Source of the DNA: Amoebophrya sp. A120
Lineage: Eukaryota; Protista; Dinoflagellata
DNA: 64,000 nucleotides
Direction: 5' to 3'
Assembly: GCA_905178155.1 (NCBI GenBank)
Contig: CAJINV010000010.1
Location: 3,430,587 to 3,494,586, forward strand
Below are positions 30 through 64,000 of this stretch, piece by piece. The number at the start of each line of letters is the position of its first letter. Positions within the stretch are counted from its first letter, which is position 1. The notes under the pieces were generated by a model that was not told where the DNA came from, ran no database searches, and was given only the letters and a program-made list of their open reading frames with translations. The translations under genes were made by a program, and so were the position numbers.

Positions 30-2062
30 TTTGTGTTGTAGTGTTGGTGGAAGATGTTGCTGTGTTGTAGCTGTGGTGGTTGTAGTGCTGGTGGTAATTA
101 TTCTGGTCGTACGCTGAAGCTCCGTAGTTGCAGCTCATCATCTGCGCATTGTGATGACCATGCCCCGGCGTCGGGTTAAAATTGCTGTACGCTCCAGGTC
201 CAGCTTGGTAAGAAGTGTGTTGCTGCTGGTGCTGGCCGCTGGTGGTCGTGCTGTTCAGCATCTCAGCATTTCCTGTTGTACCAGCTACACCACCTGCAGT
301 TCCTGACTGAGCAGTACCAGCGGAGTTTTGTTGATTCTGCCCGACCTGCTGCCGGCGCAAGTGCGGAGCCACATACAATTTCGCTTTGGTCGGACTGGCT
401 GGCGGGTTGTTGTTTGCATTGGGCGCGCCATGAAGAACATCCGTCGATTCATTTGCCTTTCCTGCACTAGGAGGAGCTTCTGGTGCGCCAGTCGTGTTTG
501 AAGGCAGTTGCACCGGTGCACCGCCAGGTTGTAATTGTAAAGTCGTTGCACCAGAACAAGTTCCTTCTGGATGATTTTCCTGCGCCGCACCCTGCGCCAG
601 TTGACTCCCATTGTTCAACATTCTCGGTGACGACTGCAAGGAGTTGTTTTTCGAGCTCTGTACGGATCCGTTTTTCGAGGAGTTTTCGCTCGAGGAGGTT
701 TTCTGCACGGCTATCAGCTTCGAGCACATTGGCGAGGGGAGCTCTAAGTCGAAACCTATCGCGAGAAAAAACTGTTTCACTGTGAACTTGTGATGCATAG
801 AATGGAAGACAGAACTATTTGAATTTGTCTTGCCACACCTGCAAGACCTCGAGGACTCTTTAGCGGTGTTTTTCCTTTGGAAGCGCGCATGGCAAATTTT
901 CTGTGTCATGTGTAACAAACTTGTGATGCAGATCTTGCAAGACCATCACAGTGAAACAGTTTTTTCGCGGGATAAAACCAAAACTGGACTTATTGTTATT
1001 CTGCGGAGCAGGAGCAGCTGGTGGCAGAACCGATGAAACGGTGCTGGTTGTAACTACCGGGGCGGGTGGAGCTGCTGCGGGAATTTGTGGTTGTCCCGCC
1101 GCGCTCGTAGAAGTTGCCGGCTTCATTACAGAGAGATTTTTAACCGTCGACGTGCTGTTGGGAACAAGACCACCAGCAGTACTACTGTTCAAAGCAGGAA
1201 CTTCTACAGGAAGTGGTCCACCTGCTGCCACGACTTCTTTTGAAGAAGAAGATGCTGGTGCGCCATTCATCTTTGGCACAACGACGACACTGGTACTAGA
1301 ACTCGTGCTGCTTGTCGGGTTAAAAACATCGTATGACGCCACCTTGCTCGGTTGTCGCTCCTCCTTTGACAAGTTCTTCACCGGGGAAGCAGACCCGGAA
1401 GTTTTGGAGTAATTTGGCGCAGCTGCTGTAGTAGAAGTTGCACCAACTACTAAAGAGCCAGCAGGAGGAAGAAGTCCAGGGACTGCAGGTGGGATCGATT
1501 TGCTGTTCTGGACATCTTTATTACTGCTAAGACTGTTAGAAGAAGAGCTCGATAAAATTTTCGACATCGCCAAAGCACTATTCATCCCGCCAAGCCCGAC
1601 GTAGGAATGCAGCTGCATCTCGACCCGGAAAAATTTCTCCTTCGCGATGTCATCCGTACCGTTCACGATCTTGTGCGTCTCTCGAAGAACTTTTTCGAAC
1701 TTCACTGCGAAGTTGTGTTTCAGCTTCTTCGGATTCATTTTTGAAGAAGTACTTTTTTGGTCATCCGTGGCAGCAGGTTCGTCGTTGGAGGAGCAAAACC
1801 CTTCATGGTCGTCGATCGGGCAGGTTAAGATCATCTTTTTACTCTCCTGCTTGTTGTTCAAGAGCGGGGAAGGAGAACTGCTACTCAACATCATTCCTGC
1901 ACTAGTACTTCCACTGTGCGTCATATTAGCATCGCTGTCGATGTGAACGGGCAAAAACGGATCTGCGACAGCGAGTAGACAGGGCGATTGCCGCTCTTCC
2001 TGGTCGCCGTCGAGGGAGAGAAGGGGGATCTGCCTTGTTTTATTCCCTTTGTTCAGCTTCAT
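30..2062 (-). CDS. Low-complexity (S/T/A/P/Q/N-rich) hypothetical protein; probably continues past the window start
   Basis: ORFs 860-2167 and 25-918 join in frame (KSSFG|FDLELPSPM) after removing element 757-974 plus 5 nt. First ATG at 2062. The apparent stop at 25-27 lies in a TATG start resembling another element end. Confidence 0.7.
757..974. mobile_element. Introner family E
   Basis: TIR TATCGCGAGAAAAAACTGTTTCACTGTGA; direct repeat AAACC. Confidence 0.92.
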
Positions 2063-2296
2063 GTTATCAGAAAGTTGCTCCGCCCTTCGCGTGAGAAAAC
2101 GAACCAACCGGCAAAAAAGCCCAGAAGCGGAGGAGCCGATGGTGTCGAGACGGCGCCTGATACACAAAAAATATCATATAAATATATCCGGTATTTCTAG
2201 GAAATTACTCTTACAGTTGTACTTCTGTGTGAATCCTCGTGATATCATGGCATCACAGAAAGATAATGCGGTAGAGTTTTCGCAAGGTAATAAATA

Positions 2297-3984
2297 CTAG
2301 TACCTGCACTCCGCGTCTTCCTTCGACTGCGAACCCACGCTGCTCCAGTTTCCGTCAAACGCAGTGCAGACACCGTCGATTTTGTCCGAATTGGATGCCC
2401 CCGCCAATCCGAATCCAGTAGGGGGCGTTGCGCTTGTTCCACCACTTGCCGCTCGCAAATCCGGTATCAAATTCTCGAACCGCAGAAACGACAACACAAG
2501 TAGGCACATTTCGTAGCTGCCCCAGTGCAGCTGCAGAGCGTGATGCGATGTTGAACGGGCGTTGTCCTTATCATCATCGATAATATCGTGCAGCTGCAAC
2601 ACTTTCTTTTCGTAAAACGTTTCCCACAATTGGAGCTATCAAATGTAAAAATGTCTGGGTCTGGAAAATTGTGATGCTGGGTGGCGTATCATGAGGACGC
2701 CACAAGTGCTCGCTCAGCATGACAAGTTTCTGAGCTTCTAGGTGTTGCCTATTCTGCATGACAAACTGCGTTTCTGCATGACAGAAAAGTGGCGCTCTTG
2801 GGTAAGGTGCATGACAGATTTGAGAGTCATGCCAGACAAGCATGACAAACATGCACTCTTCCAGACCCAGACATTTTTACACTTGATAGGAGCAGCTCGT
2901 TCACAAACCCTGCGTTCTCCCGGTATTGCTTGATCAGCAACCAGCCCCGCTTTCGCCACAAGTTTTGGTTCGACCAAAGCCGAACTTCTTGGCGGGAAAC
3001 TGGTGTCCTCGGGATCATTTTGGTTGTACTACTATTAGCTGCGCTGGTGCTCTGCTTGTTCAGAACCGCGATAACGACGGTTAACGCTTGATGCTGGTCA
3101 CCACCAGGAGCATCACCATTACCAGCAGTCCCTCCTCCTGTGCCCGTACAACTGTAGGTTTTCGCAAAGGAGAACGACCAGGCGGAGGTGCTGGAACTCG
3201 AAAGCACAATATGGATTGTGAAAATGTCTGGGTCTGGAAGAATGCATGTTTGTCATGCTTGTCTGGCATGACTCTCAGATCTGTCATGCACGTTACCCAA
3301 GAGCGCAACTTTTCTGTCATGCAGAATGGCACTTTGTCATGCAGAATAGGCAGCACCTAGAAGCTCAGAAACTTGTCATGCTGAGCCAGCACTTGCGGCC
3401 TCCTCATGATACGCCACCGAGCATCACAAGTTTCCAGACCCAGACATTTTTACATTTGATACACAAATTGCTGTTGCAATTTCTCTATCCTCTGCAAAAG
3501 TATCGCACTCGTAGTAATCGCAGTCATGCATTACAAATCTCGTCCAGCCCAAGGAAAAACAGCATGACAAATGCATTCGTCATGCTGAGCCAATTTGTAT
3601 TGCAAGTTATACCAGTACGATACTTTTGCATTGCATATTCTCCAAGCTAACACTCGAGTCCGCGAGCAATTCCAGAACAAAATTATTTTTCCCCCCGCTG
3701 TTCGTAGTTGCAACGCCACCCGCAGTCGGCGCCGTCGCAGCTGCGGTTGTAGAAGACTTCCGCAGCAGGATCGGTTTCCACGGTTTCAGCTGGAAAGACA
3801 GCTCGTCCAGGAGCTTGTTGTCGGGCGTTTCTGGAAGAGCAGTCGGGGGTAGGGGTGGAACCATGTGGTTTGATGTTCCTACGTGGACGTTACTGTGCTG
3901 CTGCATGCCGTTGCCGACTCCTGTCTCCACCCCGCGACCTAGCGCGCGTTCTTGCGTCGTAGAGACGTTTAGGTTTTTCCTCAT
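2297..3984 (-). CDS. Hypothetical protein, 4 exons including a micro-exon of about 20 nt
   Basis: Continuous frame SVSLE|KLQQQFV|LSSSS...FVNELL|QLWETFY after removing three TIR elements. Confidence 0.75.
2637..2888. mobile_element. Introner family A (252-bp subfamily)
   Basis: TIR TATCAAATGTAAAAATGTCTGGGTCTGGAA; direct repeat GGAGC. Confidence 0.93.
3210..3461. mobile_element. Introner family A (252-bp subfamily), inverted relative to 2637-2888
   Basis: Reverse complement of 2637-2888; direct repeat CACAA. Confidence 0.93.
3486..3637. mobile_element. Introner family B
   Basis: TIR core TGCAAAAGTATCG; direct repeat TTCTC. Confidence 0.92.
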
Positions 3985-4969: not shown

Positions 4970-5660
4970 AATTTAGCATCTTGGATGCGCGGGATTCATC
5001 ACTATAGTTTTGCGTTTCAGGATGCACTGTGCGGAGAGGAATAGAATAAAACGACTCAAAACTAGACAAAACTTTTTGGCACCATTTTTCGCAGACAACA
5101 GATCCTCTTTCACTTTCCATCAGTTCTTCCTCAGACCGCGATCAGAAAAAGATTGCCTTTGAGGACTGACAACCAATGCATCATTCTCAATACCCATCCT
5201 CTTGCTGCGGGCCGGAGGTCGTGCTTTCGGATTGGCCCACCGTTCCATCGGAGCCCACCACGGGTAAAAAGCTGCTTGAAGTGTATGACGACCTGGTCAA
5301 ACGTTACAATCTCAAACGTTAAAATTAGCATCTTGGATGCGCGGGGTTCATCGCTATAGTTTTTCAGGATGCGTTGCGTCACGCTACAAACTGTGCGGTG
5401 AGGAATAGACTAAAACGACTCAAAACAAGACAAAACAGTATCTGAAACCATTTTCGCCATCAGTTCTTCCTCAGACCGCAATCAAAAAAAGATTGCATTT
5501 GAGGACTGACAACCAATGCATCATTCTCAATACCCATCCTCTTGCTGCGGGCCGGAGCTCGTCCCTTCGGATTGGTCCACCGTTCCATCGGAGCCCACCA
5601 CGGTCAAAAAGCTGCTTGAAGCGTATGACCTGCTCAATCGTTACAATCTCAAACGTTACA
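4970..5660. repeat. Diverged tandem duplication of about 340 bp
   Basis: 4970-5320 resembles 5321-5660; ORFs 5153 and 5493 translate to near-identical peptides. Confidence 0.85.
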
Positions 5661-6610
5661 ATAGAGTCTAAATTTTGTCTCGCACAGCTATAAACAGACT
5701 GCGCGGCTCCTACACCGAAAGGATCTAGATTTTCTCTTGCATGATGAGCATGACAGAATCGCAGAGCGTTCCCGTTCCATCTTCTGCAATACAAATTTCC
5801 CCAGGAGATTCTAGTGCGGATTGGGGCTCCGAAACTTGTCATGCGCAATCCTATGGAACTAGGCTAGACCATGCAGTGCTTGCATCACAGATTTCCATCA
5901 TCTATTGTACCGCTTGAGATTGTAACACCTGAGCGGGTTATAAAGCGGACGCTCTGAGCCGGAGGGGCGAATGCTCCGCTGGTACCGCTGGTACCTCATA
6001 TACGTACTTCTGCATCAGTTGGAGCTGCGCTCTCAATGCCGCGACTTCGGTTTCGCACTCTGCCAGAGCAGCCGACCAGTCGGCCGGCTCCGACGAGTGT
6101 GACAACGGAGACGCGGGCGAGGAAGGAAACGAGCAGCCGTCAGAATGCGACGCCGGGGCCGTCGACGAGGAGGGGGAGTGGTGCGCGTGGCTGTGGTGGC
6201 CGTGGGGGGGGGGGGGGGGGGGGGTGACTCTTGTCGTGGTGGCCGTGGCCGTGGTGGCCGCGGCCGTCGTGCGCGACATGACCGTGTCCAGAAGCAGTCA
6301 GGTGTTTCATGCGTTTTGCATGCTCTTGCTCCGCCTTATTAGCAGCAGCTTCAATTCGCTTCAATCGTTCCGCTTTGTCCTCCGCGCTCAGAATGGTTCT
6401 TGGCGATAATTCGTCCACACTGCTTGCGTATACGGACACAAAACCAGGACGAAGAGCCTTTTTCTCAATCATGGAAACTGCACCAGTTGGAGACCCCCGC
6501 TGCAGCGCTGCATCTTGTTCATTGAGGCCATCACTGCACGGCGTGTCGGTGTGCTCCGAAGTCGCAACTGCGAAGCGCAGCAATGCTGTGATAACCAGAA
6601 GCAAATACAT
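5527..6610 (-). CDS. Putative secreted His/Pro/Ser-rich protein; frameshift at the poly-G run near 6204-6224
   Basis: Signal-like MYLLLVITALLRFAVA. ORFs 6140-6628 and 5938-6279 overlap at the G-run. Removing element 5624-5942 gives RASA|SSSFLT...QQEDGY-stop. Confidence 0.65.
5624..5942. mobile_element. Introner family C
   Basis: TIR TAT..CTCAA..GTTACAATCTCAA; direct repeat AAGCG. Confidence 0.9.
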
Positions 6611-9385: not shown

Positions 9386-12300
9386 TTACGCGCCGCCATG
9401 GTAGCCGCACTTCTCGTCCATCTTCTGTTTCTCCGCGGTTTCCAGAGCATGCTCCCCAGCCCGCGTGGTTGGGATCGACGGAGTGTTTTGGTGACCGGCG
9501 CCGCCTAAGAGGCCAGACGCACCTGAGATGATTGAACAAGCGGAGAATGCGCGTTTAGGGATTATTGCATGCAATGCCTACTGCGACTGCATACTTACAA
9601 CGGATACAACAACTACTTTGGATCTTGCACGCGCTTAGTTCTCGAACAAGCTTACCGCCGTTGGCCGCACCCATGAATTCCTGATCAAAAGCGCCGGCAT
9701 TAAAAAAACTGTCGTAGCCCGCATCCATCTGGTAACCCATGCCAGCACCCGGAGCATCTGATTTGTGGTGGTCATTTGTCGTGCGGGAAACACATCAAAA
9801 CGATAAACTTGTATTGCTTTTTTGTTTCGCTAGATGTCCTACAAAAGATAAAACTTGTCATGCAGTTGCTTCCATGCTAGTGCAGTTTGCTCATGCGTCG
9901 AAACCTAAATACAGTAAAAAGAAGTACTCAAAGCGTTCGCCATTCCCGCGGAGTAGGAGTTCTGGTAGTTCTTCCAGGACTGTATCAAACAAAAAAAAAT
10001 TTCACGATCACTCATCGACAATCTTGCAATACAAACAGCCTCTGCCATGCATGAAGATGCATCACAATCAAATCTGATACGGGATTTCTCTGGTGCTTTT
10101 GCAATACTACAAGAAAGGCCTCCAAAATTTCTCGTGCGAAAACTGCAAGTGACGAGTGATGATGACCAACTTTCTTCTGTCCATAGACTGCGAAGCACCG
10201 CTACCACGCTTGGAACTGGTATGAAAGTAAAAAACCTTTTTGCTTGTTGTGTTGTACAGAACAACTGCATCACAGGTAGAGGCAGTCAGTTCTTAGTCTA
10301 CTAATCTAGGCTATTCTTGCATCACAAGTTGCGTTGTACGTGTTCTCTCACGTAGACTATAAGCCACGCATCACAGCCCCCGCCGAACTCTGTCATGCTG
10401 ATCCGACACTACAAGCTTTCTACTTCGATTTCCGATCATACCCCGACGCGTTCGACCACTTGTTCCACTCGGCCCACTCCTCGTGACCATACCCAGCACC
10501 GTAGTTCTGATGGTTTTTTTGCATCGCAGGTTTCCTTCGTTTTGGTGAAAACAGCATGACAGAGTTTTGACACTTTTTCTTCGTTCGGGTAAGGACCATA
10601 CGCACTTGTGCTGCTGCATGACGACCTTTCTTGAAGCCAAGAACATGCTGATCATTCTATATCACAAACACAATACTATACCCTCGCAGCAGCGGCCGTC
10701 GCGGCGGAATGGTGGGCGTGCGCCGCCGCCGCGCCCATGTGGGCCGCATATCAAAAGGAAAAATCCTCCCTCCCTAGATCAAAACGGAAATTTGTGATGC
10801 AGGTTTGTGGTCACAAATCATCTTTGTCTTGCATATAAGATCATAGGAGCCATTTAACGCGTTCATGAGCAAGTCTGTCATGCGCTTTCGACTACTGCAA
10901 ACCTGTTTGCCATGCGCAATTGCTAGCCTTCTGCATACTCAAACAGGCTCAGAAAATGCCGCCAAGCACTTTCTGCACGACAAATCTGATTTGTGTACGC
11001 AAATTCAGCATCAGAGACTTCGTTGCGATATGGGGAGGGGGGATTTTTCCTTTCAATACCGCAGCCAGGTTCGCCGTGGGGTTTGCGTTGGCAAATTCGT
11101 CGTTGACCCCAAACCCGTATGGATTGCAAATACGTCTGGGTCTGGAAACTTGTGATGCAAGTCGGTCAATAACAAATGCACTGTAATGCGCCGCCAAGCA
11201 TGACAAGTTGTCTCGTGCTTCTGTGCTGCGTTTTCCGCATGAGAAACTGCGTTTTTGCATGACAGGCGAGAGAGGCTGTTTCGATGGCCCCAAGCAATAC
11301 AGATTTAAGGGCCATTCCAGATCAGCATGACAAATCTCGCAATCTTCCAGACCCAGACATATTTGCACTCCATAACCCGCCGTGATTCCCGGCGCCAGAC
11401 CCGGCGCCAAACGCAGCAGCTCCGAGGGAGTTGACGCCAGCAGATCCCTGTAACCCGCCCGCGGCAGCAGCACCCATGTTCGCCGCGGCGGCAAACTGCG
11501 CAGCGGACAGCTGCGAGGCCGCGTGGTTGGGGACTACGCCCGTGGAGCTGCCATATCCTGAGTAAAAACGTACCCACACCAGAGTCAGGATGGGGATTTT
11601 GCAACAAAAACCTAGGAGGTTTGTGAGTCACGCATGACAAGTTGCACTCTGCAGTGTAGTGCAGGTTAGCAACTGCAGCCGCATCACAAATCCATTTGCT
11701 CATCCTGTTCACAGCATCACAAATTCCAAAACACGACTGGCAATGGCTCTCATGGGGATGCGCGTTACAAGTCTTCCTGTCTTTGCAAATCTGCATTACA
11801 ACTCTGGTGTGGGTACGTTTTTACTCAGGATATGCCACCGTGCATGTTCAAAGCGTTGCCAAACGGGTTCGCGGTGTTGACCCCCGGTAAGTTGCCAAAC
11901 GGGTTCCCGTATGAAATGCAAAAGCAACGTACTAGTATGAATTGCATCACAAATTTCCCCAGCATGAAAAATAAAATTTGTAATGGGGATTTAACTTGAG
12001 AAAGAAATTTTTGAATGCATAAAAGCAATCACTACGAGTACGATACTTTTGCAATGCATATCCCGGTGTTCACCCCCGTCGCAGCACCGCTGGTCTGCGC
12101 CAACATGTTCATCATCGCGTCCAGCTGGGTCTGCTGCGCCTGCAGGTGCTGGCTAATCGCCGCGGAATTCTGCTGTCCCTGCATCTGCTGTTGCTGCTGC
12201 TGCAGAAGCAACTGCTGGTTGTTGTTTCCATTGTTGTTTCCGCCCATGTTGTTCAGGTTGTTCTGGCCGACGTTGTTCTGGCCGTTATTGTTGGCGTTGT

Positions 12301-47360: not shown

Positions 47361-49649
47361 CTAATATCGCTTGTGCGGCTTCCCCCGGTGCTGCAGTCGG
47401 AGGATAGATGAAGCCGACGGAAACTGCCTCCTCGTTGCCGCAGGACTAGGGGTAGTTGTGGCAAGATTCCCCCAATTCCTCTCCTCGTCCTCGTCCTGGG
47501 AGTAGAATTTCACTTCCTCTTTAGGTTGTGCCTCCACCACCGCAGGAGCTGTTCTCGCAGGTTTTTTCTTCTCTACGTGCGGCGTAATTTTCGGAACGAG
47601 TTGCAACTGCTCGTGCAACTCCAATTCCAGAGAACGCAGAGGGCTATTTCTTCTGTCCTGCGCGGAGACATGCGAAGCGTTCAGGTCCTGCTGGAACAGA
47701 AACAAAGCGTGTTTCAACAGATCCAAAAACTGCTGTTTCATCGCATCCATAGTTTTATTTCCGGTCTTCGTCACTAGCTCCTGGTCTACCCAGATTATGG
47801 ATTGCAAATATGTCTGGGTCTGGAAGAGTGGAACTTGTCATGCTGAGTCTGGATTATGCAAAAATCTGTGTTGCATGATTACCAAAAGTTGCCCCATTTT
47901 GACCGAGTTGAGTGGGAGTTTCTCATGCAGTATGGGCATGATAGAGACCTCAAAGAATCTGTCATGCTATGTCCTACATACCAGACCTAATGGGTCACGG
48001 AAAAGCTGCATGACAAGTCTGGCATTCTTCCAGACCCAGACATTTTTGCATTTGATACAGATCTCGGCGAAGCCAAACCAACGCGGGAAGAACTCTGTCT
48101 CGATTTTTACTTTGAAGCTTGTCATCATCCACCAGGGCATCAAGTTCTGGCGTGAGGACCAATTTCTTCCTTGTGGTTTTCCGTCATACACTTCTTGCAA
48201 TAAGTACTTGTTGTACAGGTCCGTCATATACCGGTCCGTCAAAACCCTGTGCAACGCCTTTCCGATCCGTTTCGCGAGCTCCGCTTCCAGCCCAGGATCC
48301 ACGCGCTTCTCCTTCTGCGCCGGAAGAGCAGCTCCCGAGCTGTTTTGATTTTTCCCCTTGCCCCTGTTTCTTTCTTTCTCCACTTTCGACAAACTATTTT
48401 TCAGACTCGTTTGGATCGAGGTCCCAATGGTCACAGCCGCGTCCTTTAGCCCGGTGAGGTGAAATTTGTATTTCGACCGCTCTTGTTCACTTTCGCGAGA
48501 GTTTTCTTCTATGTCACCAAGAAAAACGAAATTAGTATCCTCTGGTCGTGTCAGAGCTTCCCTTTTTCCGCTAGTAGGTGAAACAATGGATATCCTGAAA
48601 TCCTGGGCGTCGAGCCAGTCTTCGTACTTCTGCTTGTTTGCGGTATAATTTTCAGCCTCTTCTGTCTCTTTCACCAACTGCGCGACGTTGTTTACAAAGG
48701 ACTCCCGCTTTGCTTCGTCGAATTGAAACGTCGAATTATCACGACCCCTGAGTAGAGGTGCAGCCCCTTCTCCTCGCTGACTGCCACGGCTACTTCCACC
48801 CCCGCTCCTCGAAGAAGCCTTGGATCGTGCCGACGAGGAAGAAGCGGCTTCAACACCGTTGCCCGCCATAATTATCGGAGTTGGAGTTCCACTTTCCACG
48901 GCGCCATAAAAATCCTGCTGAGAATCGGGAGACGAGCGCGAGGGCATAGCGGAAACATCACCGGTGGCTGTCGTCGCGCCGTCGAAGCTCGGCCGTTGTT
49001 CAACAACACCAGTGGAATCATCAGCAGAAGTCGGATTATCGTTTAAGAGCGTGAGGAGCTCAAGCTTCATCTTCCGTTGTGTCTTTGGCGCGATGGGCAG
49101 CTGCTGCTGCAAATGGAACCGATCAACTACCTCGACCTCCGATGCTGTTGCAGGAGCTGCGGATGAAGCAGAAGCTTCGTCGCAAGCTGCTTCAGATCCT
49201 ACATTTAGTCGCAACCTGCTGCCTGTAGTACAGAGGGGTCGTGAAAGAACCACCTGCACCGGGTCCGTGGCACTCAAGCCAGCAACCGCGTTGTAGGGAA
49301 CAGTCGTGCTAGCCCCCGCGGGACGATCAGCGGCTGATGTAGTTGCGTACGAGGTGGACGCCGGAAGATGAACGTATTGTGGTGAAGCAGGAGTGTTGCG
49401 GAAATCGCCAGAGGAGTCCTGGTTTTCCGCGACCAACTGGCGCTTGCGAACGGAGTTCCTGCCAGCCCGGAAACCCGCGGCATAGACTGCCTTCCAGTGT
49501 GCGCCGGCTTTGGATGTTGAAGGCGAAGAACCTGGTGTACCAGCCGACAAGGCATACGTCGGCGTCAGCGAGTGCGGTGTCGCCGCGAGGAGTAGAGAAA
49601 CGAGCTGTACCAAAGCGGTACTTGTTCTCTTCGAGCTGAGATCGAACAT
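47361..49649 (-). CDS. Hypothetical protein with a signal-peptide-like N-terminus
   Basis: ORFs 47967-49649 and 47361-47807 join (FAEI|WVDQEL) after removing element 47796-48057 plus 5 nt. Confidence 0.78.
47796..48057. mobile_element. Introner family A
   Basis: TIR; direct repeat CAGAT. Confidence 0.93.
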
Positions 49650-52264: not shown

Positions 52265-55200
52265 CTACACGTCTCCCAGAGACGTGACCGGCGCCTTTCG
52301 CTTTCCAGCAGCTTGCGATGCCGTGAGGATGCTCTTGTGCTCTTTTCTTCCTGCAAATAAGCTATCCTGTGCTTCATTATCATTTCCCCGTGAGCAGCAG
52401 CTGCTGCCGGTAGAAGTATGACGACCACCCGCCTCCAGCTGAGCGGCTGCCAGTCGCTCCGCTGGACCAAATTTTGTGACCACTTCCTCATCAGAGCCCC
52501 ACGAAAAGTGGTCGCCGCGGTAGAAATTTCCGACGAAATCTTGAGTCCCCAACTCACCCTCGAGTTGTCGTAGCGTAAACAGCACTGCGTTTTGCCTTCG
52601 GTCTACCAGAGCTAGGTCCTTGGCAGACAGCTCGTCCAGCTGTGCGGGTCCATTGCCATCAATTGCGGATGAACAAGAAGAATTTCTATCTTGTTGTCCT
52701 GGGCATGATACAAGAATTCTGCGCTGTTCATTACCATCTTGATCTGGTGCAAGATCAACATCATCTTCGAGAAAGCGCCGCCAACACAGCCCTCTGTTGG
52801 CGATTTCTGCCAGCTTTTCAGCAGCCCGGCGTGCGGATTCCACGGAGGGGATTTTCTTTCGGTGCCGCCAACTGGCATCCTCGGGTCCCGAGCGCAGAAA
52901 ATCCACCACTTTCGACGACAGACACGAATACAGCGCTCGGATCGAAAAGTATCCTGAGTAAAAATGTCCCCACACCATAGTCAAGATGGGGAATCGGCTA
53001 GACAAATCCACAAGTTTTGGCTGTTTTGCATCACAAATTTGGACTCGTAGTGTAGTGCTGTTTGAGCTACCTCAGCAGCATCACAGACCTAGCACACCAT
53101 GCTGATTGGAGCATGACAAATTGAAAAACACGACTAGAAACTGCTTCTCATGGGGCTCCGCATGAGAAACATTTTCAGCATGTAGATTTGCATTACAACT
53201 ATGGGGTGGGGACGTTTTTAAATAGGATAAAAAGTCTTGCATCGTCACCTTCGCCACCCTTGCGTTTCTGTTCCCCTCCTCAACAATGGCGGCCCGGGCT
53301 CTTATTTGTTCGTCCTGCGATGAAAGTAATTGGCTTGTTACCGTTGGGACAACTCCTACACTGCGATCGCTTGTGCTCTGTGCATTTCTTGCAACACCTC
53401 CAACATCTTCCCCCGACCTCCCAGGCCCCGACGCTACTGGAGATCTTGACCGGTGAGCGGCTTCTTGTTGTCCCCGCGGCTCGTTTGGTATACTAGTACC
53501 AGCGGTAGATGATGTTCTTGTTCTTCCCTGTGTATCGACCGGTTCTGGTCCGTCATCAGAGGACGTCGAGGGAGCCAGTTGTGGCTCGACGCTACCCCAC
53601 CTTCCCGTGGCTGCAGAAGGAGAAGTTGAAGTAGGAGGCGTTGTACTAGAACCACGTGATGGCGGTGTACAACTCGACCCTGCTACGGTGTACAACAACT
53701 GCTCGGGATCAAGATTAACACCTTCCCCACCATCAATACTTCCGTCTGTTCGACTGGCAGGCGGTTGATTGTTTCTCACACTTCCTCCTACAGTGTCACT
53801 TCTGGTGGTGCTGCCACTTATACCATGGTCTTCATCGCTTCCCGAACCTGCAACAGTCGCAGTAGTAGACCCACCTTCACGATGATCACTTCCGTCTGTA
53901 GCAGAAGTTGCGGAGGCAATAAAGCCTGGACTTCTACTTCTGTCGTCGCTTTTTGGTTGAGGTGGTGGTGGAGGTGGAGATGGTGGATCTGCAGCTCCGG
54001 CAGCACCCCCCGCTGATAAATGACCTTGACCTCCGCCTCCAGCAGCAGTTGATCTACCTTGACCTCCCCCCATAATTCCCGTACTATTGCGCGCCGGCGG
54101 CCAAAAAATGGTGCGAGCAGGAGAAGGGACAACTCCCCTGGAGGGACTTGTTAAGCTGGTCGTCGGTGCCGCATCTTCCTTCGGCTTCGTCGCTGATGTC
54201 CTAATACCGCCATCCTCGTCGTGCTCGCCCACTTGATCATGTTCGTCCCTATTTTGAGAATGTGTCTCCGCAACAAACACGCCACAGCAAACCGCGACGG
54301 TAACTGGCAGGGAAAGGAGGACGCAGGCGAGCAGGATTTTCCCGAGCAGGGTCGCGGGCGACAGGAAAGACATGAAAGTGCTTGTTGAACAGCAACCTTT
54401 ATCTGTGTCCTCGTCTCCTGCTTCTAAAGAAAGATCCGAACCACAATCTACTACTTCCTCCCAATTATTATGCTCGCGCCGTGGGAGTTGTTCGGGCAAA
54501 AAATCTACTGTGGTTCTGGTTTCGTCCTGCAGTTCTTGCGTCGGCAAGAAGGAGTGGTCTTCATAGGACTTCTGCGCGGGCGCCGCGAGCCGCACGCCAA
54601 AACCTTCTTCAAAAAAGTAGGCGGACGGAGTCTCTTCGTCTTCCGCAGTTTTATCGGTGAAGGTCAGAGTTTTTGTATCTTCGGTAATTACAAGAGCACT
54701 TTTTCGTCCACGACGGCCTTCGCGGTTCGCGTAAATTTCTTGCAGGTTTAATATCCTTCCCCCGTACAGGTCGAGATTTTGATTTTGGTCTTCTGGGTTT
54801 GTTTTCTTCTCAACAAAGTAGTTCGCATTTTCGTCTCGCAGGCCTTGATCAGAAGCATGATGAAGATCGACGTCCTCTTGTTTATTATTTCCCGCAGCAA
54901 TAAAGTCAAGCGGCGCAAAACCTTGTCGTTGTGCTCCTTCAGCTACTCCGAAGTAGTTGTACAACAAATCTTCCTCCTGAAAGTTGTACCCGACTTGTTT
55001 TATTTCACCACCGCTTCTTTCTTGTGCTCCACCCGGACGCGAGACGAGAGCTACCGGAATGTGTTTTTTGTGCAGGACCGTCGCAGTGCTGCCCGGGATG
55101 GGCCGAATAGGGGCTTGCTGGAAGTCGAAACAAAGTTCTGGATCGTGGTGATGAAAGTTGTTCTGCTCCGCAGAAGATGAGTCAACATTTCTCCCGGTCG

Positions 55201-57934
55201 CACAAGAACGATCTCGTCCCTGCGAGTTTATTGCAGATGCAAACGTAGTACTAGTACGGCTGGCTCCCGCTGCAAACGTAGCACAAGAACTGCCACTCGA
55301 CGTCGTCGCTCCACCGCTACAACTGCCCTCAGCCCCGCCGCATACCAACGCTTCCAGCCCGCACAGCTCCGCTTCAAACTCCGCCGCGGTTATGCGCTTT
55401 TCGATGTCGCGCTCCAAGCATTTCTGCAACAGAAACATCAAATGCTCCATCTTTCGTGCCTCCAGATCATCATGTTGAGAAGTCTTGTTGTAGCTCTCAT
55501 CGTTGCTCATCGTGAAGATCGTCCCGGCAGCTTTGCAATTATACTCCTCTTTTCTCGGCCAGCCCAAGCTTACCCTTTCCGGATACTGTATCTTCATCCA
55601 CGCGTCGACGATGCAGAACATGACCCGATTCGTTCCCCCCGGCTGACTCAGCAAGTAGTCGTGCGGCGGCTTTCCGTAGATCATCGCGTACAGGATGATC
55701 CCCAGCGACCACACGTCCGTGCCCGGCCGCATCTTCATCGTGTTTTCGTACTGCTCCCCCTGGTGCAGCGCCTCCGGCGCCATGTAGAGCACAGTCCCGC
55801 AGTGGCCAAACCGACTGATGTGCGATTTATCACAATCGACCACCCGCGCCAGCCCAAAGTCGGACAGCTTCACGGTTGTTCGGTTGTCAAACATCAGAAA
55901 GTTCGCGGGCTTCAAGTCGAAGTGGACAATGTTCCGGCTGTGGATGAAACTCACCGCCTTCGCCATCTGGGTGATGCAGTGCAAGATTTGCGGCAGCGGC
56001 ATAAAGTAGAAAATCTCGGCCGCGAGGTCTCGGTTGGAGTCGCTCACATTACTCGTCAATTTCCTCATATTATGATCTTGCCCTTGCGGTCTTTTGCTTC
56101 CACATAGTAAATCAGTTCCTTGTCCTAGTCCTTCCCCAGCTTGCTTCCACAAAAAGGATTTCTGGTAGGTCCGGAAGTCGCAATCCGCGCACTCCAATAC
56201 GATGAAAAGATTCAAGTTCTCCTCGAACCGCTTCGACCCGTAGCATTTCACGATGTGCTTTTCCCCGATCCTGTCGTCTTTCGTCAACTGCTCCAGCAGC
56301 ACCGCCTCTTTATCAAATGCAAAAATGTCTGGGTCTGGAAGAATGTGCGATTTGTCATGCAGCTTTTCCATTACCCATGAGGTCTGGAATGGAGGACCTA
56401 GCATGACAGATTCTGTGCGATCTCTCTCATGCCTATCCTGCATGAGAAACTCCCTCCCGACTAGGTCAAAACTGGACGACTTTTGGTAATCATGCAACGC
56501 AGATTTTTGCATGCTTCAGATTTAGCATGACAAGTTGCACTCTTCCAGACCCAGACATTTTTACACTTGATACTCCTGCTGAAACTGCAACAATTTCTGC
56601 CGGCTGTCGGCCGAAACAATCTTCAACGCGTAAAACTTCTTTTTTGATTCGGCCTTGTACACCTCCGCGAAGCCCCCGCGACCCAGCAATTCGCCGATGG
56701 AAAACTCCGTGTTATTGAACGTGAAAACGGAAGTTGCAGCTCCCCGGGAGCTTTGCGCCGCCGGCGGATTCAAGTTCAACACAGACAGGTCGTTTACTAG
56801 CTTTATTTCGGCAGGATGTGGATGTGGATACGTCGTGATATTTTGATTCCCGCGCCCACAATTTCTGGTCATTTTTCCCTGCTCCCGATAGCACGCTTCG
56901 AGTTGTGGTGGTCCTGGTGGTCTTGTATGTTCTTGACCGCGTTGGTCATCTTCGTCCTGTGGACGTGGATCTCCTACTAGCACCGTGGATTTCATATTTT
57001 CACCACAACTGCGCCCATTATCGTCGTGAATATTAACCGGGTTGTTGTAGATGGTCGGATGATGAACATCAATCCGAGGCCGCTTCTTGTCTGCTCCTCC
57101 TCCACCAGCTCTTGGTGCACAAATATCGACAATATCTTCCTCCGGAGGTTTGGCAGCTGCAGGTAACGAAAAATCTACTTGCCGACCCTGCAGTTTTTCT
57201 CTCAATGAGGTCTCTTCACTTCGCCCATTCGCAACCGCGCTTTCCACCAAGTGGTCCACTCTCGTCGGCGGAGGGACCGACGGGAGAGACAATGCGACCT
57301 CGAGCCGGGTCAGACCAGCAGGAATAACCCGAGCCCGCCCCGGGAGCTGATGCGCCGGCTCTTGGGGAAGACAAAAACCACCACCGCCTTGCGCCGCTGG
57401 TCGCACTGGACTAGTGGTAGAGCTACAAGAACTTCTACAATGGGAGGGAACATCAACTTCCGCCAATTGGTCTCTCTTCTCGTCGTGCTGGGGGCTTCGG
57501 ATTTCATCGCGGAGGTCTTTACTTTCAATGTTTTCACGATCACGACCCAGGGGCGGGGCCGGGGGAACTACAGGCATATAATCTGGCTCCACCCAACGGA
57601 CACGGTGCGTCGATACTCCTTGCAGTTCATCTCTAAAAATTATAGGGTGATTTGTCTCCACTTGAATCTTCTCTCCTCGCGCAGGGGCCGGCACATTACT
57701 TTCCTCCTCTTCGCGGCCTGCTTTATTTCGGTTCACCTTATCCCATCTCGGCGATGAACCGAGGTGGTCTACTACTTCGCCGGACGAGGAGGTCCTCGTA
57801 CCCGTTGTGCAGCAAGAATCGTTGGCCGCGGCTAAGCGTGCTGGTGCAGCAAGACATTTTCTTTCTCCGGAAGAATCATTCCAGTCGTGCTGTCTCGACT
57901 TGGAGGTAGAGGTCCACGCCGTTTTTCTCAGCAT
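52265..57934 (-). CDS. Protein kinase, Mps1/TTK-like catalytic domain, with a downstream hydrophobic segment
   Basis: GRGGFAEVYK, YALKIV, HFDLKPANFL, SDFGLAR, GTVLYMAPE, DVWSLGIILYAMIYGKPP; joins QQE|AVLL and MQDF|SIRAL across two introners. Confidence 0.88.
52950..53229. mobile_element. Introner family K
   Basis: TIR; direct repeat AAAAG. Confidence 0.92.
56311..56572. mobile_element. Introner family A
   Basis: Flanks CTCTT/CTCCT; splits the kinase alphaC region. Confidence 0.92.
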
Positions 57935-59851
57935 TATCGTCCCAGTTCTACTTCCGGCGCCAATTTTGGCGTTGATACGAAAACTGCATAAGTATAGCAG
58001 GATAAGAACAATTTACAATTATATTTTGGATGTCTATGGATCAGAAAACAAGTACTTTTATTTTCTTCATCTTTCGATCTGGGAATAAAGCCGGGCAGTG
58101 TTGAGCAACCATTTCTAGTAATTTTTTCACATTTGATAGTTTTCAAACTACAACAATTTCTACTTCCGGCAAGGGGGGAGAACTACATGAAATTCTCTCG
58201 CATTGGATGACGGGGAACTTATACTTGGTTGTCTTCAAGTTCAATATTATTATTAATAGATACAAACGTAATATAAAAGTAGAAATAAAAACGTATCGAA
58301 AACTTCATCACGACCTAGAAGAAGAAGCTATAAAAATGCTGCTATTTTTTTAAACTGCCCTTCAGACGCAACACCGATAGAACAAGTATGAGGGCATTAA
58401 AACCAAGTATGCTCCACCTTCCTGTTGTTTGTTCCTGGTGCTGTGGGTAATTGCATTTGCAAGAGTGCTGATGTCGAAGAACAGAATTACACAATTACAA
58501 TTACAATTTATTCGCGAGAGGATCTCGCGAGAATCCGACTAATATCACTCCTTCATGATTTTTCAAGGATCTTTATCTATCATCAGAAGATCTTTCAGCA
58601 TTTTTCTCGTGCGGGATCTTCGCCATTTCTGCTGTAGTTTCAAGACCGATTTAGTATTTCATCATTGCCACACATATAATTCTGCAAGAACATTTTGGAA
58701 TCACAAAACAGCGAAAAGGATAAGACCTGAACATTTCAACTACTTCCCTTGCAGACCAGAACGATAGAAACCCATTTCAGTTGGAAGCACCTACCGACGC
58801 CGGACATTTAAATTCAGCCCTTCTGCTCACACAAACGCACACATTGATCCATTTCGATCCAACAATCATTTCAAAGCGTGATCATGGATCTTTTACTTGT
58901 TGACCGATGTACTTTCTTCTCGATTTTTTCGATCATATCAAAATTACATCAAAAAGGCATTTATTTTTCGTGCGGGATCATCACATGGGAGATCTACTTC
59001 CGCCACGCTTCCAAATGTTGCTTTCGCAGGAGGTAAGACCGAGAAAATAGGAGGGCTGGTCGTGCGAGTTTGCATCACAAACAACAACAAGTGAAGCATT
59101 AGTGCAGACCATGCATCACAGATCAATCCAACACGGAGTTAAGTAGACGTGCTAGCCGAGCGGCGTTCAGAACCTGCATGTGTCTTGCAATCTTCCTGTC
59201 AGTGTGAGTGACAATATACTTGCGCGTACAGTGACACTTGTGCACTACAATTGCTAATTTACAAAAAACACAAATGGGCATACTGGCGTTCTACCATCAT
59301 AGGGCTTCCAACAAGATCATAACGGTCATGGAACATTCATCTATGCAAACGCAAGCAAAAGCTGTTTTCTGTGAATGACAAATACTGGAAATCAACTCAC
59401 ACGGAGAGAGTGGAAATGAATAAAAACGATTCTATGTTCTTTTTTGTAATGTAAACTGAAACTGATAGATGAGACCGCCCCTGCATCAAGAACGTGATCT
59501 CATGATGTGCTACAGGAAATAAACGAAAGAGAAAATGTGGATGTGCTCATTTTTGAAATAAATCATGATCATTGCAGAAGAAAAACGATCAGCTTGTAGT
59601 TCTATGCACTTCTACATAAAATCTACAGCATTTCCTCCCTGGACATATCAACCGACGACGCAAACCCGATACTGCGCCTCTGGTTCATCCGTGCGGAATC
59701 TGCCGTGTATTCATCCGGCGTATCCGATAGCTCCGCGACCATTTGCTGGCTCATGGTCAAATTCACCGCAAACGATCATATCCTGTGCAAAAACACGGGC
59801 CCCACGAACCCGCCGCATTGGTCGTCGTGCAGGTACTAGTCTGCACTTCGA

Positions 59852-62800
59852 CTACGGGCGGGTGCTGTGGTCCTCGTTTTTGCTCAGGATAAACGACCCC
59901 ATGGCGGCGCCGCTGCCGTCCCGGAGAATTCCGTCAGCCGGAAAGTTCACGGTGCCGCCTCCCGCACGGGTAGCGGTTCTTGCTCCAGTCCTAGCTGCAC
60001 CATCGCCGCCAAGATCTCCCGTCGAAGTCGTTGTGATTATTTCCGCGTGGCCCTCAAAGTGCGTGGTCACCGCGTCTTGCAGCTGATGAATCATGGCTTC
60101 CACGTCGATCTCATTTGCTCGTCCCGCCAAGGCGGACGAGTTAATATCTTGCGTCGCGTCTAGGACAGGGGTCTGTAGTTGTCCTAGATTCAGTTTCGCC
60201 TTCTCCAGCGAGTCAGTGTTGTTCATCAGCATTCGGGTTAACCCTATCGCACGGAAAAACTAATGCTTCACATTCTACACGAGTAACAATGCCGTTTCTT
60301 GGTGTCCTTGCATCGGTATTAAGTATAGCAAGGCAACCAGGTCGTTGTGTGCTCTAAAAAATTTTCCGCATCACAACAAGTGCAACAATGTCAACAGCAC
60401 AGTTTTGTCGTGCGATACACTCAGACAGTTTTTTGATCGTCGCATTTTTCCCTTTGATCACACCCTTCAGCTGCTATCGTATGGAAAAGCCGATAGTGCC
60501 CCCGCCCTATAGTGGTCACGATGATCGAAAAGGAAAACTCCGCCGACGGCGCACAAACACCAGTAGGAAGACAAACTCTCGGTCTCCTCATGGTGCTCCT
60601 GCGCATGAGAAATTTGCATGACAAACGTGAGATGATACATATGGGTTGCACCATCGGTTTTCACGAAGCATAGCTCCTTCGTTTTCTTCGACAGGTTAGC
60701 CAGCTCCGCCTGATATTATGTGTAATCAGTTGATCTTCGATACAGTTGCAATTCCATTTTTAGTATTCGTGAAGATGATCATGCAGCTCTTAGACACTAC
60801 CAGACCACTACTTCTACTTCACGAATCTTTTACTTGTTACAACAAGAAACAGAAGGCTGCACAGGTGCTGGCATCAAGGCAGTATCAACATGGCGTAAGT
60901 ACTTACAACTAGCGTGTGAATCTTCATGCGTCGTCCTGTGGACGAGCACGAGTGACTATGAATCTATACCGCGTTGTCTGCAGCCACGTCGTCGATTGAG
61001 CTCCTAACGACGCCCAGTTCGGCTTTCATTTTTTCTTCTTTCAATTCTAAGCGGTCAATCTTCAAGCGCTATGCACTGCAAATAAGTACTGATCTGAGCG
61101 TAGTTCTCCTTCACCTGGCTTCCGAAGGCTTATTTTGCCGAGCATGCTTCGCAGGTTTTTTCCCAAACTGCTTGTGTCCAACTCCATCCCTATCGTCCCG
61201 CATGAGACGTACTTTCTTAATGTGACGAAAATTGGACAGATGCTGTTCATGCAATACAGATTGTAAAAAATAAGTTCGCATGACAAGTTGCAGTTGTAAG
61301 TTCCAGATGATGTGGACTTGTTCCCAGAGGACAGTAAAACTTGCAATGCATAAATCCTTTTCCCGGCACATTTCCTCCATCTCTAGCAAAGCCTTTTTCA
61401 ATTGCTGAATTTCGGCCTTTTGCTTCTCGATTTCTACCTGTTGCTCCAAAATCTTGTCCTGTTTCTCTTGGACCAAAGCGTCTTTTTCCGAAACCTCGAA
61501 GTTCAGTTTCGTGATGGCTAGCGACTCCCGGTCTTTTTTCGATTCCTTCCCTTGCACGCTCGTTCGGTCGTGTTCCAGCTTTTCTTGTCGCAGGTTCTTG
61601 ATTTCGTTTTCTAGTCGAGGGATTTCTTGCTCATACTTTCGCAGCTGCTCGATCAGGGCAACGTCTGCTTTTATCGAATGCAAATATGTCTGGGTCTGTC
61701 ATGCTGAATGGTCATGATTGAGTGCGCCTGTACTGTTTTGTGTGCAGTGAAGCATGACAAATTCTTCAAACACTTTTTCATGGGTAAACACGCACTACAA
61801 AATCAGATATTGCATGACGAAAATGTGGTGCTTGTTTTGCTGCTCATGCAATACAGATCTATGAGGAATGCGAGACACGCAATACAGGTTCAACCTTTCC
61901 AGACGAGCCAGACATATTTGCAATGCATAGCTTTACTGTTTTGCTGAAACGGAAAAGTTGAACTGTCAAAAGAAACCGACGCTTTGTTCAGTGTGGTGGC
62001 CCGCGCGAAGCTGACCCGGCTGTCTGCGTGGTTCAATTCCGCCTCTTCTAGCATCTTCTCCAGCTTTTTGATCTGCAGCTGATACCTCTCTTGCAACTTC
62101 TTCATCTCTTGTCGGGCTTCCTCCTTGACCTGCTATCAAAATGAAAAATCCCCCCTCCCCATATCAGAACGAAAATCTGTAATGCAGATTTGTGATCACA
62201 AATCAGCTTTGTCATGCTAGAAGGGAAAAAATATATGCGAACTGTAGTGCTGGGTGGCGTGGAAAGCAGGCCTTGCATCTTCAGCATGACAAGAGGCAGC
62301 TGGACGTGGGAAACAGCATGACAAATTGCCTGTAAACGAGGCCACGACTGCGCCTATATGCCTTCTAGCAATACAAGTCGACTTGTGTACTCAAAAACAG
62401 CATCACAAAATTCGTTTTCGATACGGGAAGGGGGACTTTTTCCTCACAATACCTGCTTCTCGAAATTTTTTTCCCGCAGTTCCCGCGCCGACCCGGTGGT
62501 CGGCGGACTCTGCTGCCGTGCGGTCTTTATGCATTGCAAATATGTCTGGGTCTGGGAGATTGGGAGATGACTTGTCATGCAGGTTTTCCCCTGGCGTGCA
62601 GGACATAGCATAACGTCTGGCGTGCAGGACATAGCATGACAGATTCTGTGAGATCTTTCTCAAACCTAGCCCGCATCCGAAACTTCCTCGCTAGGTGGTC
62701 AAAAGTGGACCACAACTTTTGGTACTAACCATGCAACACAGATTTTTTTTTTTCACAGTCCAGCCTTAGCATGACAAGTTACAACCTTCCAAACCACCCA

Positions 62801-64000
62801 GACATATTTGCATTTTATAGTCTTTCCGTCTTTCACCTCCAAGGCCTGCAGCTTCTGGTTCATCAGGATCAGATCGTTCCCGAGCGACCAATTCTTGTGC
62901 TTCAGATCCGCGTTCACTCGTTCCAGGGAATCCCGGCTGTGGGCCGTAGTTTTTAATTCCTTCTCCAATTTTTCCTGTGCGAACTTCAACTCTTGCAGCT
63001 TTTCCTTGTACTTCTGTTCGACCGAGTCCTTCCACGACTTATCTTTCATTAAATTATGCAAGAAAAAAACTGTGTGAGTGTAACTTTGTCTTGCAGATGT
63101 TGCGCTACAGTTACACTTGTTATGCTGGATATGCTTTAGAAGCTATTTTGATACTTACGTGTTTAGTTTTCGCGTACTAGCGACGCATGACAGGTTTTCT
63201 CTGTCACGCAAAACAAATCTGTCATGCTGTTCCTGCCAAAAAGTTACACTTACACACTTTTTTTCTTGCGATACAAATCGCCCGCCCCCCAGTACGCCAG
63301 CTCCTCCTTGCACTGCCGAATGGTCTGCAGGGCCACCTGGATGTCCCGCAGCATCTGCTCGTGAGACGTTCCTTTCGTCAAGCTCGTGACGCTGGTGCTG
63401 GGAGACAGCAACGCCGCGGATATGACAGTGCACAACTCCCCCTCCCCCTCATTTGTGTAGCATGAACGGCACTGCAAGCCACAGCCAGAATGCACGTTTT
63501 GCATCACAAATTTGCATAGGATTGTAGTGCTCTTTGGGCTGCCAGAACTTGTCATGCAAACGCTGCTCAGAGGCACGGACTGCATTGGGCATTTTGCATG
63601 ACAAATGAGGGGGAGGGGGAGTTGTGCACATTCATAGCGGAGTTGCCGGACTGAAAAGACGTCGTGGACAATTTCGACCCCAGCCTCTTATATCAAATGC
63701 AAATATGTCTGGGTCTGAAATAAACTTGTGATGCTGGGTGGCGAGTCCTGAGGACGCCACAAGTGATGGCTCAGCATGCCAAGTTTCTGACTTGCTAGGT
63801 GTTGCGTATTGTGCATGACAGACCGCGTTTCGGCATGACAGAACAGTGGGGCTCTTGGGTACTAACGAGCATGACAGACTTTGGAGTCATGCTAGCAGAG
63901 CATGACAGATCTTCCATTCTTCCAGACCCAGACCTTTTTGCAATCCATATCGCAGGGGACAACGATCCCCCACCCGTCGCCGTCCTTGGGTGCTGCTGAA
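59852..64000 (-). CDS. Coiled-coil protein; 5' part lies beyond the window and the 3' exon structure is tentative
   Basis: E/K/Q-rich heptad-like exons (KYKEKLQELKFAQEKLEKEL, EIEKQKAEIQQLKKALLEME) separated by 7 introners. Confidence 0.72.
61070..61352. mobile_element. Eroded introner
   Basis: TATGCA.TGCAA ends; direct repeat lost; frame restored (EKD|LKIDRL). Confidence 0.75.
61672..61929. mobile_element. Introner family A
   Basis: Direct repeat GCTTT. Confidence 0.9.
62134..62451. mobile_element. Introner family I
   Basis: Direct repeat CCTGC. Confidence 0.9.
62528..62819. mobile_element. Introner family A
   Basis: Direct repeat GTCTT. Confidence 0.9.
63055..63273. mobile_element. Introner family D-like
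   Basis: TIR core AAGAAAAAAA.TGTGT.AGTGTAAC; flanks TAAAT/CAAAT. Confidence 0.88.
63421..63636. mobile_element. Introner family F
   Basis: Direct repeat GCGGA. Confidence 0.92.
63691..63949. mobile_element. Introner family A
   Basis: TIR; flanks TCTTA/TCGCA. Confidence 0.88.

What the first reader, a model, noticed from the sequence alone, without database searches (positions are those of the whole stretch)
757..63949. About 65 MITE-like TAT...ATA elements with 5-bp duplications act as introns without GT-AG
Seen: about 12 families share TAT/ATA ends, TIRs and 5-bp direct repeats of varied sequence. They interrupt conserved motifs (PPR, kinase alphaC, TM9SF GWK|LLHADVFRPP), and deleting element plus 5 nt restored the frame at every junction I translated. 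Most cannot give GT-AG in the shared register. Known: Amoebophrya genomes were reported to carry invasive non-canonical introns with inverted and direct repeats, and the excision machinery is unresolved as far as I know. Inferred: one shared removal system (RNA splicing, or possibly DNA excision) recognises the element ends rather than canonical splice sites.
Basis: partly seen in the sequence, partly recalled or inferred. Interest (0 to 1): 0.9.

Follow-up and report, generated by a model that had tools for sequence, protein, structure and literature searches.

The report
Amoebophrya introners share one cut position
About 70 small transposon-like inserts interrupt genes of the algal parasite Amoebophrya A120 and, wherever transcripts could be checked, are missing from them although they lack normal intron ends; the class is already published, but the cuts fit one fixed position, likely a shared splicing rule.

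Summary
Real, but mostly known. The window is Amoebophrya sp. A120. It holds 71 TAT...ATA elements with terminal inverted repeats; 51 have a perfect 5-bp duplication. These are the published A120 introner elements (PMC7789003, sections read; '5-bp TSD, TA/TA termini' in a PMC12130899 dataset).

Contigs from four runs of one sample (RNA is a guess) lack the element plus 5 nt at 15 of 15 directly shown element joints, and also lack GT-AG introns. Four public proteins cross 41 of 43 elements the same way.

New here: 13 junctions with unequal duplicate copies all fit one register, a cut 1 nt before TAT and 4 nt after ATA. The published text calls these borders variable or unknown. This register gives an N-U-A donor, like the GTA of 11 of 11 canonical introns seen, and no AG acceptor. 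Removal most likely uses a relaxed, hairpin-guided spliceosome (inferred); DNA excision is unlikely.

The scan noted similar hairpin introns in other genomes, none for this sequence.

The parts
757..3637 (-). Four elements in two unnamed ORFs: 757-974, 2637-2888, 3210-3461, 3486-3637 (2637 and 3210 are one family in opposite orientations; 19-nt exon between the last two)
5624..5942 (.). Element with perfect duplication, outside any mapped gene
9389..19216 (-). PPR gene (public A120 protein P0121, 999 aa) with 24 elements: 9983-10185, 10220-10440, 10749-11058, 11118-11374, 11554-11832, 11910-12060, 12441-12705, 12783-12934, 13027-13331, 13388-13608, 13681-13830, 14346-14597, 15065-15386, 15709-15879, 16249-16519, 16587-16740, 17097-17384, 17390-17651, 17707-17859, 17899-18133, 18178-18592 (nesting 18183-18331), 18711-18972, 19024-19165; plus 7 canonical GT-AG introns
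19024..19165 (-). Element whose two duplicate copies differ at 3 of 5 places; the public protein matches only the 4+1 register
10220..10440 (-). Worn element that reads as a GT-AG intron with TAT at +2 and ATA four bases before the acceptor cut
19233..20186 (-). Elements 19233-19441, 19668-19843 (doubtful, duplication 1/5) and 19973-20186, upstream of the annotated PPR start
22837..23098 (-). Element in an NSUN2-like methyltransferase gene; an X3 contig skips 267 = 262+5 nt; the spliced product equals public protein P0001 (839 of 839 aa)
26178..37577 (-). Gene of public protein P0123 (1035 aa, identical across all 9 outer elements): 27137-27399, 27539-27797, 27843-28108, 28287-28559, 28624-28944, 28988-29139, 29308-29570, 30354-30664, 30778-36919
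30879..36764 (.). 5.9-kb TAT...ATA element with a perfect 5-bp duplication, long inverted arms built of 108-bp arrays and a core of 14 x 256-bp repeats, nested in a 251-bp family member; the 6.1-kb composite is skipped in P0123
40824..42737 (-). Three elements with unequal duplicate copies whose transcript joints bracket the register: 40824-41107, 42290-42454, 42485-42737
47796..48057 (-). Element skipped as 267 = 262+5 nt in contigs of all four runs
   Evidence: table 8
52950..56572 (-). Elements 52950-53229 and 56311-56572 in a protein kinase gene (1731-codon ORF after removal; no transcript joint seen)
59779..63949 (-). Ten elements in the gene of protein P0125: 59779-59891, 60245-60417, 60475-60672, 61070-61352, 61672-61929, 62134-62451, 62528-62819, 63055-63273, 63421-63636, 63691-63949

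Best explanation
These are the Amoebophrya A120 introner elements: TAT...ATA inserts with 5-bp duplications that are absent, together with 5 nt, from spliced transcript contigs, and that are likely removed from pre-mRNA by the resident spliceosome, guided by the end-to-end hairpin instead of a GT-AG pair. Step 1 (inferred): a transposase acting in trans, Ginger-like by the published label for one A120 family, inserts non-autonomous copies at nearly any 5-bp site in either orientation. Step 2 (shown at 15 joints directly, 4 by length): the transcript loses element + 5 nt, which restores the empty-site sequence. Step 3 (fits 13 of 13 informative junctions): the 5' cut lies 1 nt before TAT and the 3' cut 4 nt after ATA. 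Step 4 (inferred): the TA of the inverted repeat supplies donor positions +2 and +3, as in this organism's GTA donors; +1 and the acceptor are free, and the 3' cut is measured from the base of the stem.
For: Identity: 100% matches to proteins named Amoebophrya sp. A120; published end signature TAT, 7 variable nt, >=3 A equals the logo here.

RNA-level removal: one contig per run in X3, X4 and X6 (two in X5) spans TM9SF and lacks 13 elements as element+5 and 2 GT-AG introns; all 15 joints shown are in all four runs (table 5). 47796 (table 8) and 22837 (table 8) are skipped likewise.

Register (k = bases of the duplication kept from the upstream copy): the transcript joints allow k 4-5 (40824), 3-5 (42290) and 0-4 (42485), so only 4 is common. 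I then tested this on 10 further junctions in public proteins: all allow 4, and 19024 allows only 4. By hand, the chance that those 10 all admit k=4 under a random register is about 6e-4.

Spliceosome hints: 11 of 11 canonical introns seen begin GTA; sense-strand ends start TA in 71 of 71, while the 3' ATA is altered in 3 of 71; the same transcripts use both intron types; the paper reports 83 of 89 spliceosomal proteins and U2, U4, U5, U6 in A120. 9 of 9 predominant A120 non-canonical site types in its Table S4 start NT. Hairpin: 63 of 65 short elements fold with z below -2, median -6.8 (12 shuffles each).
Against: No test of the machinery was possible: no lariat, branch point or knockdown data. 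X3-X6 are one sample, are assembled contigs, and RNA is a guess of the tool. The public proteins derive from transcript alignments and may rest on related data; the annotation also prefers long ORFs, which bears on 59779 and 60245. Only 1 of 13 junctions fixes k=4 alone; the rest do so only if one register is shared. The TA-intact versus ATA-altered contrast (0 vs 3) is too small to be significant, and the list was seeded on TAT/ATA. NT donors in Table S4 could come from the read mapper's tie-breaking. Worn elements show no drift to an AG acceptor at this register (1 of 21 at <=3/5; 10 of 222 at 5/5). The public PPR protein departs from element+5 at 13027 and 13388 and is 12 aa short after 11910. 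The folding scores follow from the inverted repeats and do not show that the stem is used in splicing. U1 snRNA was not detected in A120. 6 joints and 1557 were not shown.
Confidence: 0.6

Rival explanations
1. Same RNA-level removal and same register, but by a separate, non-spliceosomal or second-spliceosome activity that recognises the stem, as proposed for euglenid nonconventional introns.
For: No donor +1 or acceptor preference; both orientations of one family are removed (40507, 40824, 43006 against 22837, 41155, 47796); the offsets of 1 and 4 nt resemble the Euglena code with 3 and 5-6 nt spacers (PMC12501133 abstract and discussion); U1 not detected; exons of 19-50 nt and one of zero length between elements; an octamer shared by 64 of 66 elements could bind a dedicated factor.
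Against: The register places U+2 and A+3 exactly as in the canonical donors; 3 of 71 elements are GT-AG at this same register; in Fritillaria non-canonical transposon-derived introns are attributed to a modified spliceosome (review section; preprint abstract).
Confidence: 0.3
2. The elements are excised from DNA in an expressed copy of the genome, like ciliate internal eliminated sequences, and transcripts come from element-free templates.
For: Loss of element plus one duplicate copy is also what precise excision would leave. The DNA-like run X1 and runs X3-X6 are different samples, so a stage-specific DNA change was not tested directly.
Against: All 8 listed X1 pieces run from unique flank into element ends without a mismatch at depth 41-47, and none joins two flanks (table 8); only some of these ends have 31 or more bases on both sides, X1 may be the assembly's own source, and 1557 joints were hidden. 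Contigs of X3-X6 also hold other element copies still attached to flanks at the exact termini (table 7). A fixed, strand-asymmetric 4+1 register is expected of a transcript-level cut. A unicell without a separate germline nucleus would inherit the loss (general knowledge, recalled).
Confidence: 0.04
3. Removal is real but the cut slides within the duplication from element to element, as the published text implies, and the 4+1 fit is partly an artefact of few junctions and annotation choices.
For: PMC7789003 Fig. [quoted passage not shown]
Against: With a perfect duplication any of six registers maps equally well, which alone yields mixed annotated ends; none of 13 informative junctions breaks k=4.
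Confidence: 0.12

Closest known systems
Introner elements / non-canonical introns of Amoebophrya sp. A120 (Farhat et al. 2021, PMC7789003; abstract, sections 10-12, 16, 25, 32 and supplement legends and Table S4 rows read; figures not visible)
   Same: Same organism; ends TAT + 7 nt + A-run; direct repeats of 3-5 nt (Fig. S19 legend: 5 bp); hairpins; RNA-supported removal; many families; public proteins already skip these elements.
   Different: The text calls the borders variable or unknown; here one 4+1 register fits all informative junctions. Their intron analysis stopped at 1000 bp, so the 6.1-kb nested composite lay outside it. [quoted passage not shown]
A120 introner families in Gozashti et al. 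2025 (PMC12130899; passages and 22 of 58 A120 rows of supplement file 8 seen)
   Same: TIR DNA elements of 150-320 bp; family 38 labelled Ginger, '5-bp TSD, TA/TA Termini'.
   Different: Duplication lengths of 2-5 and mixed splice sites are listed per family; TIR-first counts here give 5 bp almost only. I did not match window families to their family numbers by sequence.
Euglenid nonconventional introns (PMC12501133 abstract and discussion; PMC11282704 section 6)
   Same: No GT-AG, paired ends, MITE-like origin, cuts at fixed and unequal distances from the paired motif.
   Different: Motif CAG/CTG with 3 and 5-6 nt spacers and a purine at the exon start, excised as circles; here TAT/ATA with 1 and 4 nt and no exon-start preference seen.
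Fritillaria borealis non-canonical introns (PMC11282704 section 6; preprint 10.1101/2025.08.15.670264 abstract)
   Same: MITE-derived introns with TIR and TSD, handled by an altered spliceosome.
   Different: They keep preferred terminal dinucleotides (AG-AC, AG-AT) and a preferred target; A120 duplications show no sequence preference.

Membership tests
Amoebophrya A120 introner elements | Found in strain A120 | tested here: met
   100% identity to proteins named A120
Amoebophrya A120 introner elements | Inverted repeat starting TAT, seven variable bases, then at least three A | tested here: met
   End logos: A at positions 11-13 in 56-62 of 67 ends of each side
Amoebophrya A120 introner elements | Direct repeat of 3-5 nt at the exon/intron boundary | tested here: met
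   51 of 71 perfect 5-bp repeats; TIR-first tests
Amoebophrya A120 introner elements | Removed from transcripts without GT-AG | tested here: met
   15 direct joints; GT-AG possible for 4 of 70
Amoebophrya A120 introner elements | Repeated in families | tested here: met
   10 multi-copy clusters, largest 25; further copies in L001-L154
MITE / non-autonomous TIR transposon | Short, non-coding, TIRs, constant duplication length | tested here: met
   113-415 bp apart from the 5.9-kb element and its 6.1-kb composite; 5-bp duplication
MITE / non-autonomous TIR transposon | Cognate autonomous element or transposase | tested here: inconclusive
   None seen in the window or among long pairs in 154 loci; no whole genome held
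Ginger DNA transposons | Integrase-like transposase and Ginger-type termini | not tested
   Only the published label for family 38; the same paper says that element lacks the expected Ginger termini and homology
U2 spliceosomal intron | GT...AG ends | tested here: not met
   3 of 71 at the 4+1 register; only donor +2 and +3 match
U2 spliceosomal intron | Lariat intermediate and dependence on U2/U6 | not testable with these tools
   Needs lariat sequencing or knockdown
Euglenid nonconventional intron | N3-CDG ... CHG-N5-6|R signature | tested here: not met
   Ends are N-TAT ... ATA-N4 with any base next; works alike in geometry only
Programmed DNA-eliminated sequence | Element-free DNA copies | tested here: inconclusive
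   None among 8 listed X1 pieces; most joints hidden and contigs drop rare variants

The most novel reading that the evidence does not exclude
The tens of thousands of A120 introners are not variable-border introns but one class with a single geometric code, N|TAT ... ATA-NNNN|, that works in either orientation and from 113 nt to a 6.1-kb nested composite. A spliceosome without detectable U1 would read only U+2, A+3 and the stem, making almost any insertion of this transposon group silent. I did not find this rule stated in five literature searches, though unseen figures of PMC7789003 may show it.
Probability: 0.5. Interest if true: 0.65.

Novelty: already known. Interest (0 to 1): 0.42.

Why it matters
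The elements themselves are published. How they are removed is still open in the papers read. A fixed register turns about 30,000 ill-defined borders (published count) into one rule that fixes the annotation and predicts the exact ends of the excised RNA, so lariat, circle or linear products can be told apart.

Tried and rejected
No whole genome is held, so no genome-wide count and no search for snRNAs or a transposase. No RNA holder was on record as RNA. Laying X1 swamped the joint table with repeat artefacts. Kinase-gene elements 52950 and 56311 showed no joint among the rows displayed; low cover there is no evidence. Idea that old elements drift to AG acceptors: not supported (the peak at offset 3 follows from the duplication itself). 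Target-site or strand bias toward G donors or AG acceptors: none clear (donor +1 G 25, A 16, C 15, T 14). Family pattern absent from viral contigs. ORFs in the 5.9-kb element are repeat-derived stop-free frames and were not searched further. My per-element frame score favoured +5 for 45 of 65, other classes for 19, one tie; it was confounded by unmapped canonical introns. The tandem pair 17097/17390 was left out of the register count because the script's test is not valid for it. First boundary guesses 42294, 44337, 63054 and 9982 were corrected to 42290, 44328, 63055 and 9983. Scan look-ups by first word set, by place and by sequence returned nothing.
Full report
1. Observation. The elements are real. 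A mechanical scan found 46 TAT...ATA pairs with a perfect 5-bp direct repeat and clear inverted repeats; at TIR >=17/25 there are 44, against a mean of 0.01 in 100 shuffles. Searching with known ends and mapping introns from a public protein raised the list to 71 elements covering 22,415 of 64,000 bases: 51 with 5/5, 10 with 4/5 and 10 with 3/5 or fewer matching duplicate bases. 67 of the 71 lie inside nine mapped ORFs or genes, all on the minus strand. Pairing by inverted repeat first, an exact 5-bp repeat flanks 30 of 40 pairs in the window and 174 of 226 pairs in 154 loci fetched from the metagenome collection; 3, 4 and 6 bp are almost never seen. The ends share TAT-N5-G/T-N-AAAAA. BLAST clustering gave 10 multi-copy families and 13 singletons among 67.

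2. Organism and prior art. Three searches returned 100%-identical proteins named Amoebophrya sp. A120. PMC7789003 (sections 10-12, 16, 25, 32 read) describes A120 introner elements with inverted repeats starting TAT, direct repeats of 3-5 nt, 29,850 copies and no U1 snRNA detected; its Fig. S19 legend shows 5-bp repeats. A PMC12130899 dataset lists A120 TIR families of the same lengths and labels family 38 'Ginger, 5-bp TSD, TA/TA Termini'. The system is therefore known.

3. Removal. Deleting element + 5 nt in a script opens long frames (59 of 64 junctions in ORFs of 150 codons or more, against 40-48 for the other frame classes; +2 and +8 are not distinguishable by frame). Contigs of runs X3-X6 (one sample; RNA is the tool's guess) settle the length. 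Of 21 joints in 38601-57000, 15 are shown: 13 skip element + 5 nt and 2 skip GT-AG introns, each in all four runs (table 5). Two more element joints stand in table 8 (47796; 22837). The loss of GT-AG introns and the uneven, gene-bound cover mark these contigs as spliced RNA. Public proteins agree: P0001 equals the scripted product at 839 of 839 residues, P0123 at 1035 of 1035 across 9 elements including the 6.1-kb composite, and in all 41 of 43 outer elements in four proteins are crossed as element + 5. The two exceptions, 13027 and 13388, lie in a low-complexity stretch of the PPR protein.

4. DNA or RNA. All 8 listed pieces of the DNA-like run X1 pass from unique flank into element ends and none joins two flanks (table 8). 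This is weak: many have under 31 bases inside the element, X1 may be the assembly's source, and 1557 joints were hidden. Together with element copies still attached to flanks in X3-X6 (table 7) and the strand-asymmetric register below, RNA-level removal is much the likelier.

5. Register, the one addition. A perfect duplication hides the cut, but unequal copies reveal it. Let k be the number of duplicated bases kept from the upstream copy on the sense strand. Transcript joints give k 4-5 at 40824-41107, k 3-5 at 42290-42454 and k 0-4 at 42485-42737; only 4 is common. I then checked public proteins: 10220, 12783, 28287, 61070 and 63691 allow 3-5; 30778 and 60475 allow 2-5; 59779 and 60245 allow 2-4; 19024 allows only 4. 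So 13 of 13 informative junctions admit k=4; k=5 is excluded by four and k=3 by two. Of the other unequal elements, three are synonymous in the proteins (16587, 27843, 63055), three have no data (19668, 44328, 56311) and the tandem pair 17097/17390 was left out. The intron is N-TAT ... ATA-NNNN. PMC7789003 calls the sites variable and the border unknown, yet 9 of 9 predominant A120 site types in its Table S4 begin NT, which fits, though mapper bias could also produce it. Its figures were not visible to me and may bear on how new this is.

6. Mechanism. In this register the element's TA falls on donor +2 and +3. All 11 canonical introns seen begin GTA. The sense 5' TA is intact in 71 of 71 and the 3' ATA is altered in 3; two elements with altered ends (38884, 40824) are still removed. 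Donor +1 and the acceptor dinucleotide are free, both orientations of the main family are removed, and 63 of 65 short elements fold far better than shuffles (examples). I favour a relaxed spliceosome that reads U+2, A+3 and takes the 3' cut from the stem (0.6), over a separate stem-reading enzyme as suggested for Euglena (0.3). Against my reading: no drift to AG in worn elements, no U1, and no direct test of any intermediate. The transposase was not found.

7. Other features. An octamer, TGT[CGA][AT]TGC, occurs at 14.5 per kb in elements and 0.87 per kb outside, in 64 of 66 short elements of all families, pointing inward from both ends; it could bind the transposase or a splicing factor. A 5.9-kb element with arms of 108-bp arrays and a 14 x 256-bp core is nested in a short one and lacks the octamer.

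8. Verdict. Observation confirmed, interpretation supported, system already known. The fixed 4+1 register was not found stated in five searches and makes the open question of the machinery easier to test. Interest 0.42.

Noticed in passing
window 30879-36764: 5.9-kb foldback-like TAT...ATA element: about 1.1-kb inverted arms of 108-bp arrays around 14 copies of a 256-bp unit, perfect 5-bp duplication, nested in a 251-bp element inside a coding exon; the public protein skips the whole 6.1 kb.
   Followed up: partly
all short elements; clusters outside at 9810-10554, 14176-16688, 20270-20561, 41588-41640, 59072-59181: Octamer TGT[CGA][AT]TGC shared across families, oriented inward; copies also lie in canonical introns and between genes, which may be worn element remains.
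   Followed up: partly
window 17097-17651: Two elements of one family separated only by the 5-bp duplication, leaving a zero-length exon; removed as 560 nt in the public protein.
   Followed up: partly
window 18178-18592: A 149-bp element inserted 5 bases into the end of another element, duplicating that element's first five bases.
   Followed up: partly
window 10220-10440 and 19668-19843: Worn elements that read GT...AG at the 4+1 register; no general trend of this kind in 275 elements.
   Followed up: yes
window 13027-13608 and 11870-11910: The public PPR protein lacks 16 and 12 residues that element+5 removal predicts; an X3 contig keeps the 72-nt exon before 11910, so the annotation may be mis-joined in repeats, or an exon is skipped.
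   Followed up: partly
window 4960-5660: A tandem duplication of about 370 bp that includes a truncated copy of the 5624-5942 element's left end at 5287.
   Followed up: no
canonical introns at 39200, 41572, 43627, 44141: All four TM9SF canonical introns are followed by an exon that begins GT.
   Followed up: no
L001-L154: Contigs under one accession prefix in the metagenome collection carry the same element families at about 67-85% identity, with no match to the window's unique sequence among the rows shown.
   Followed up: partly
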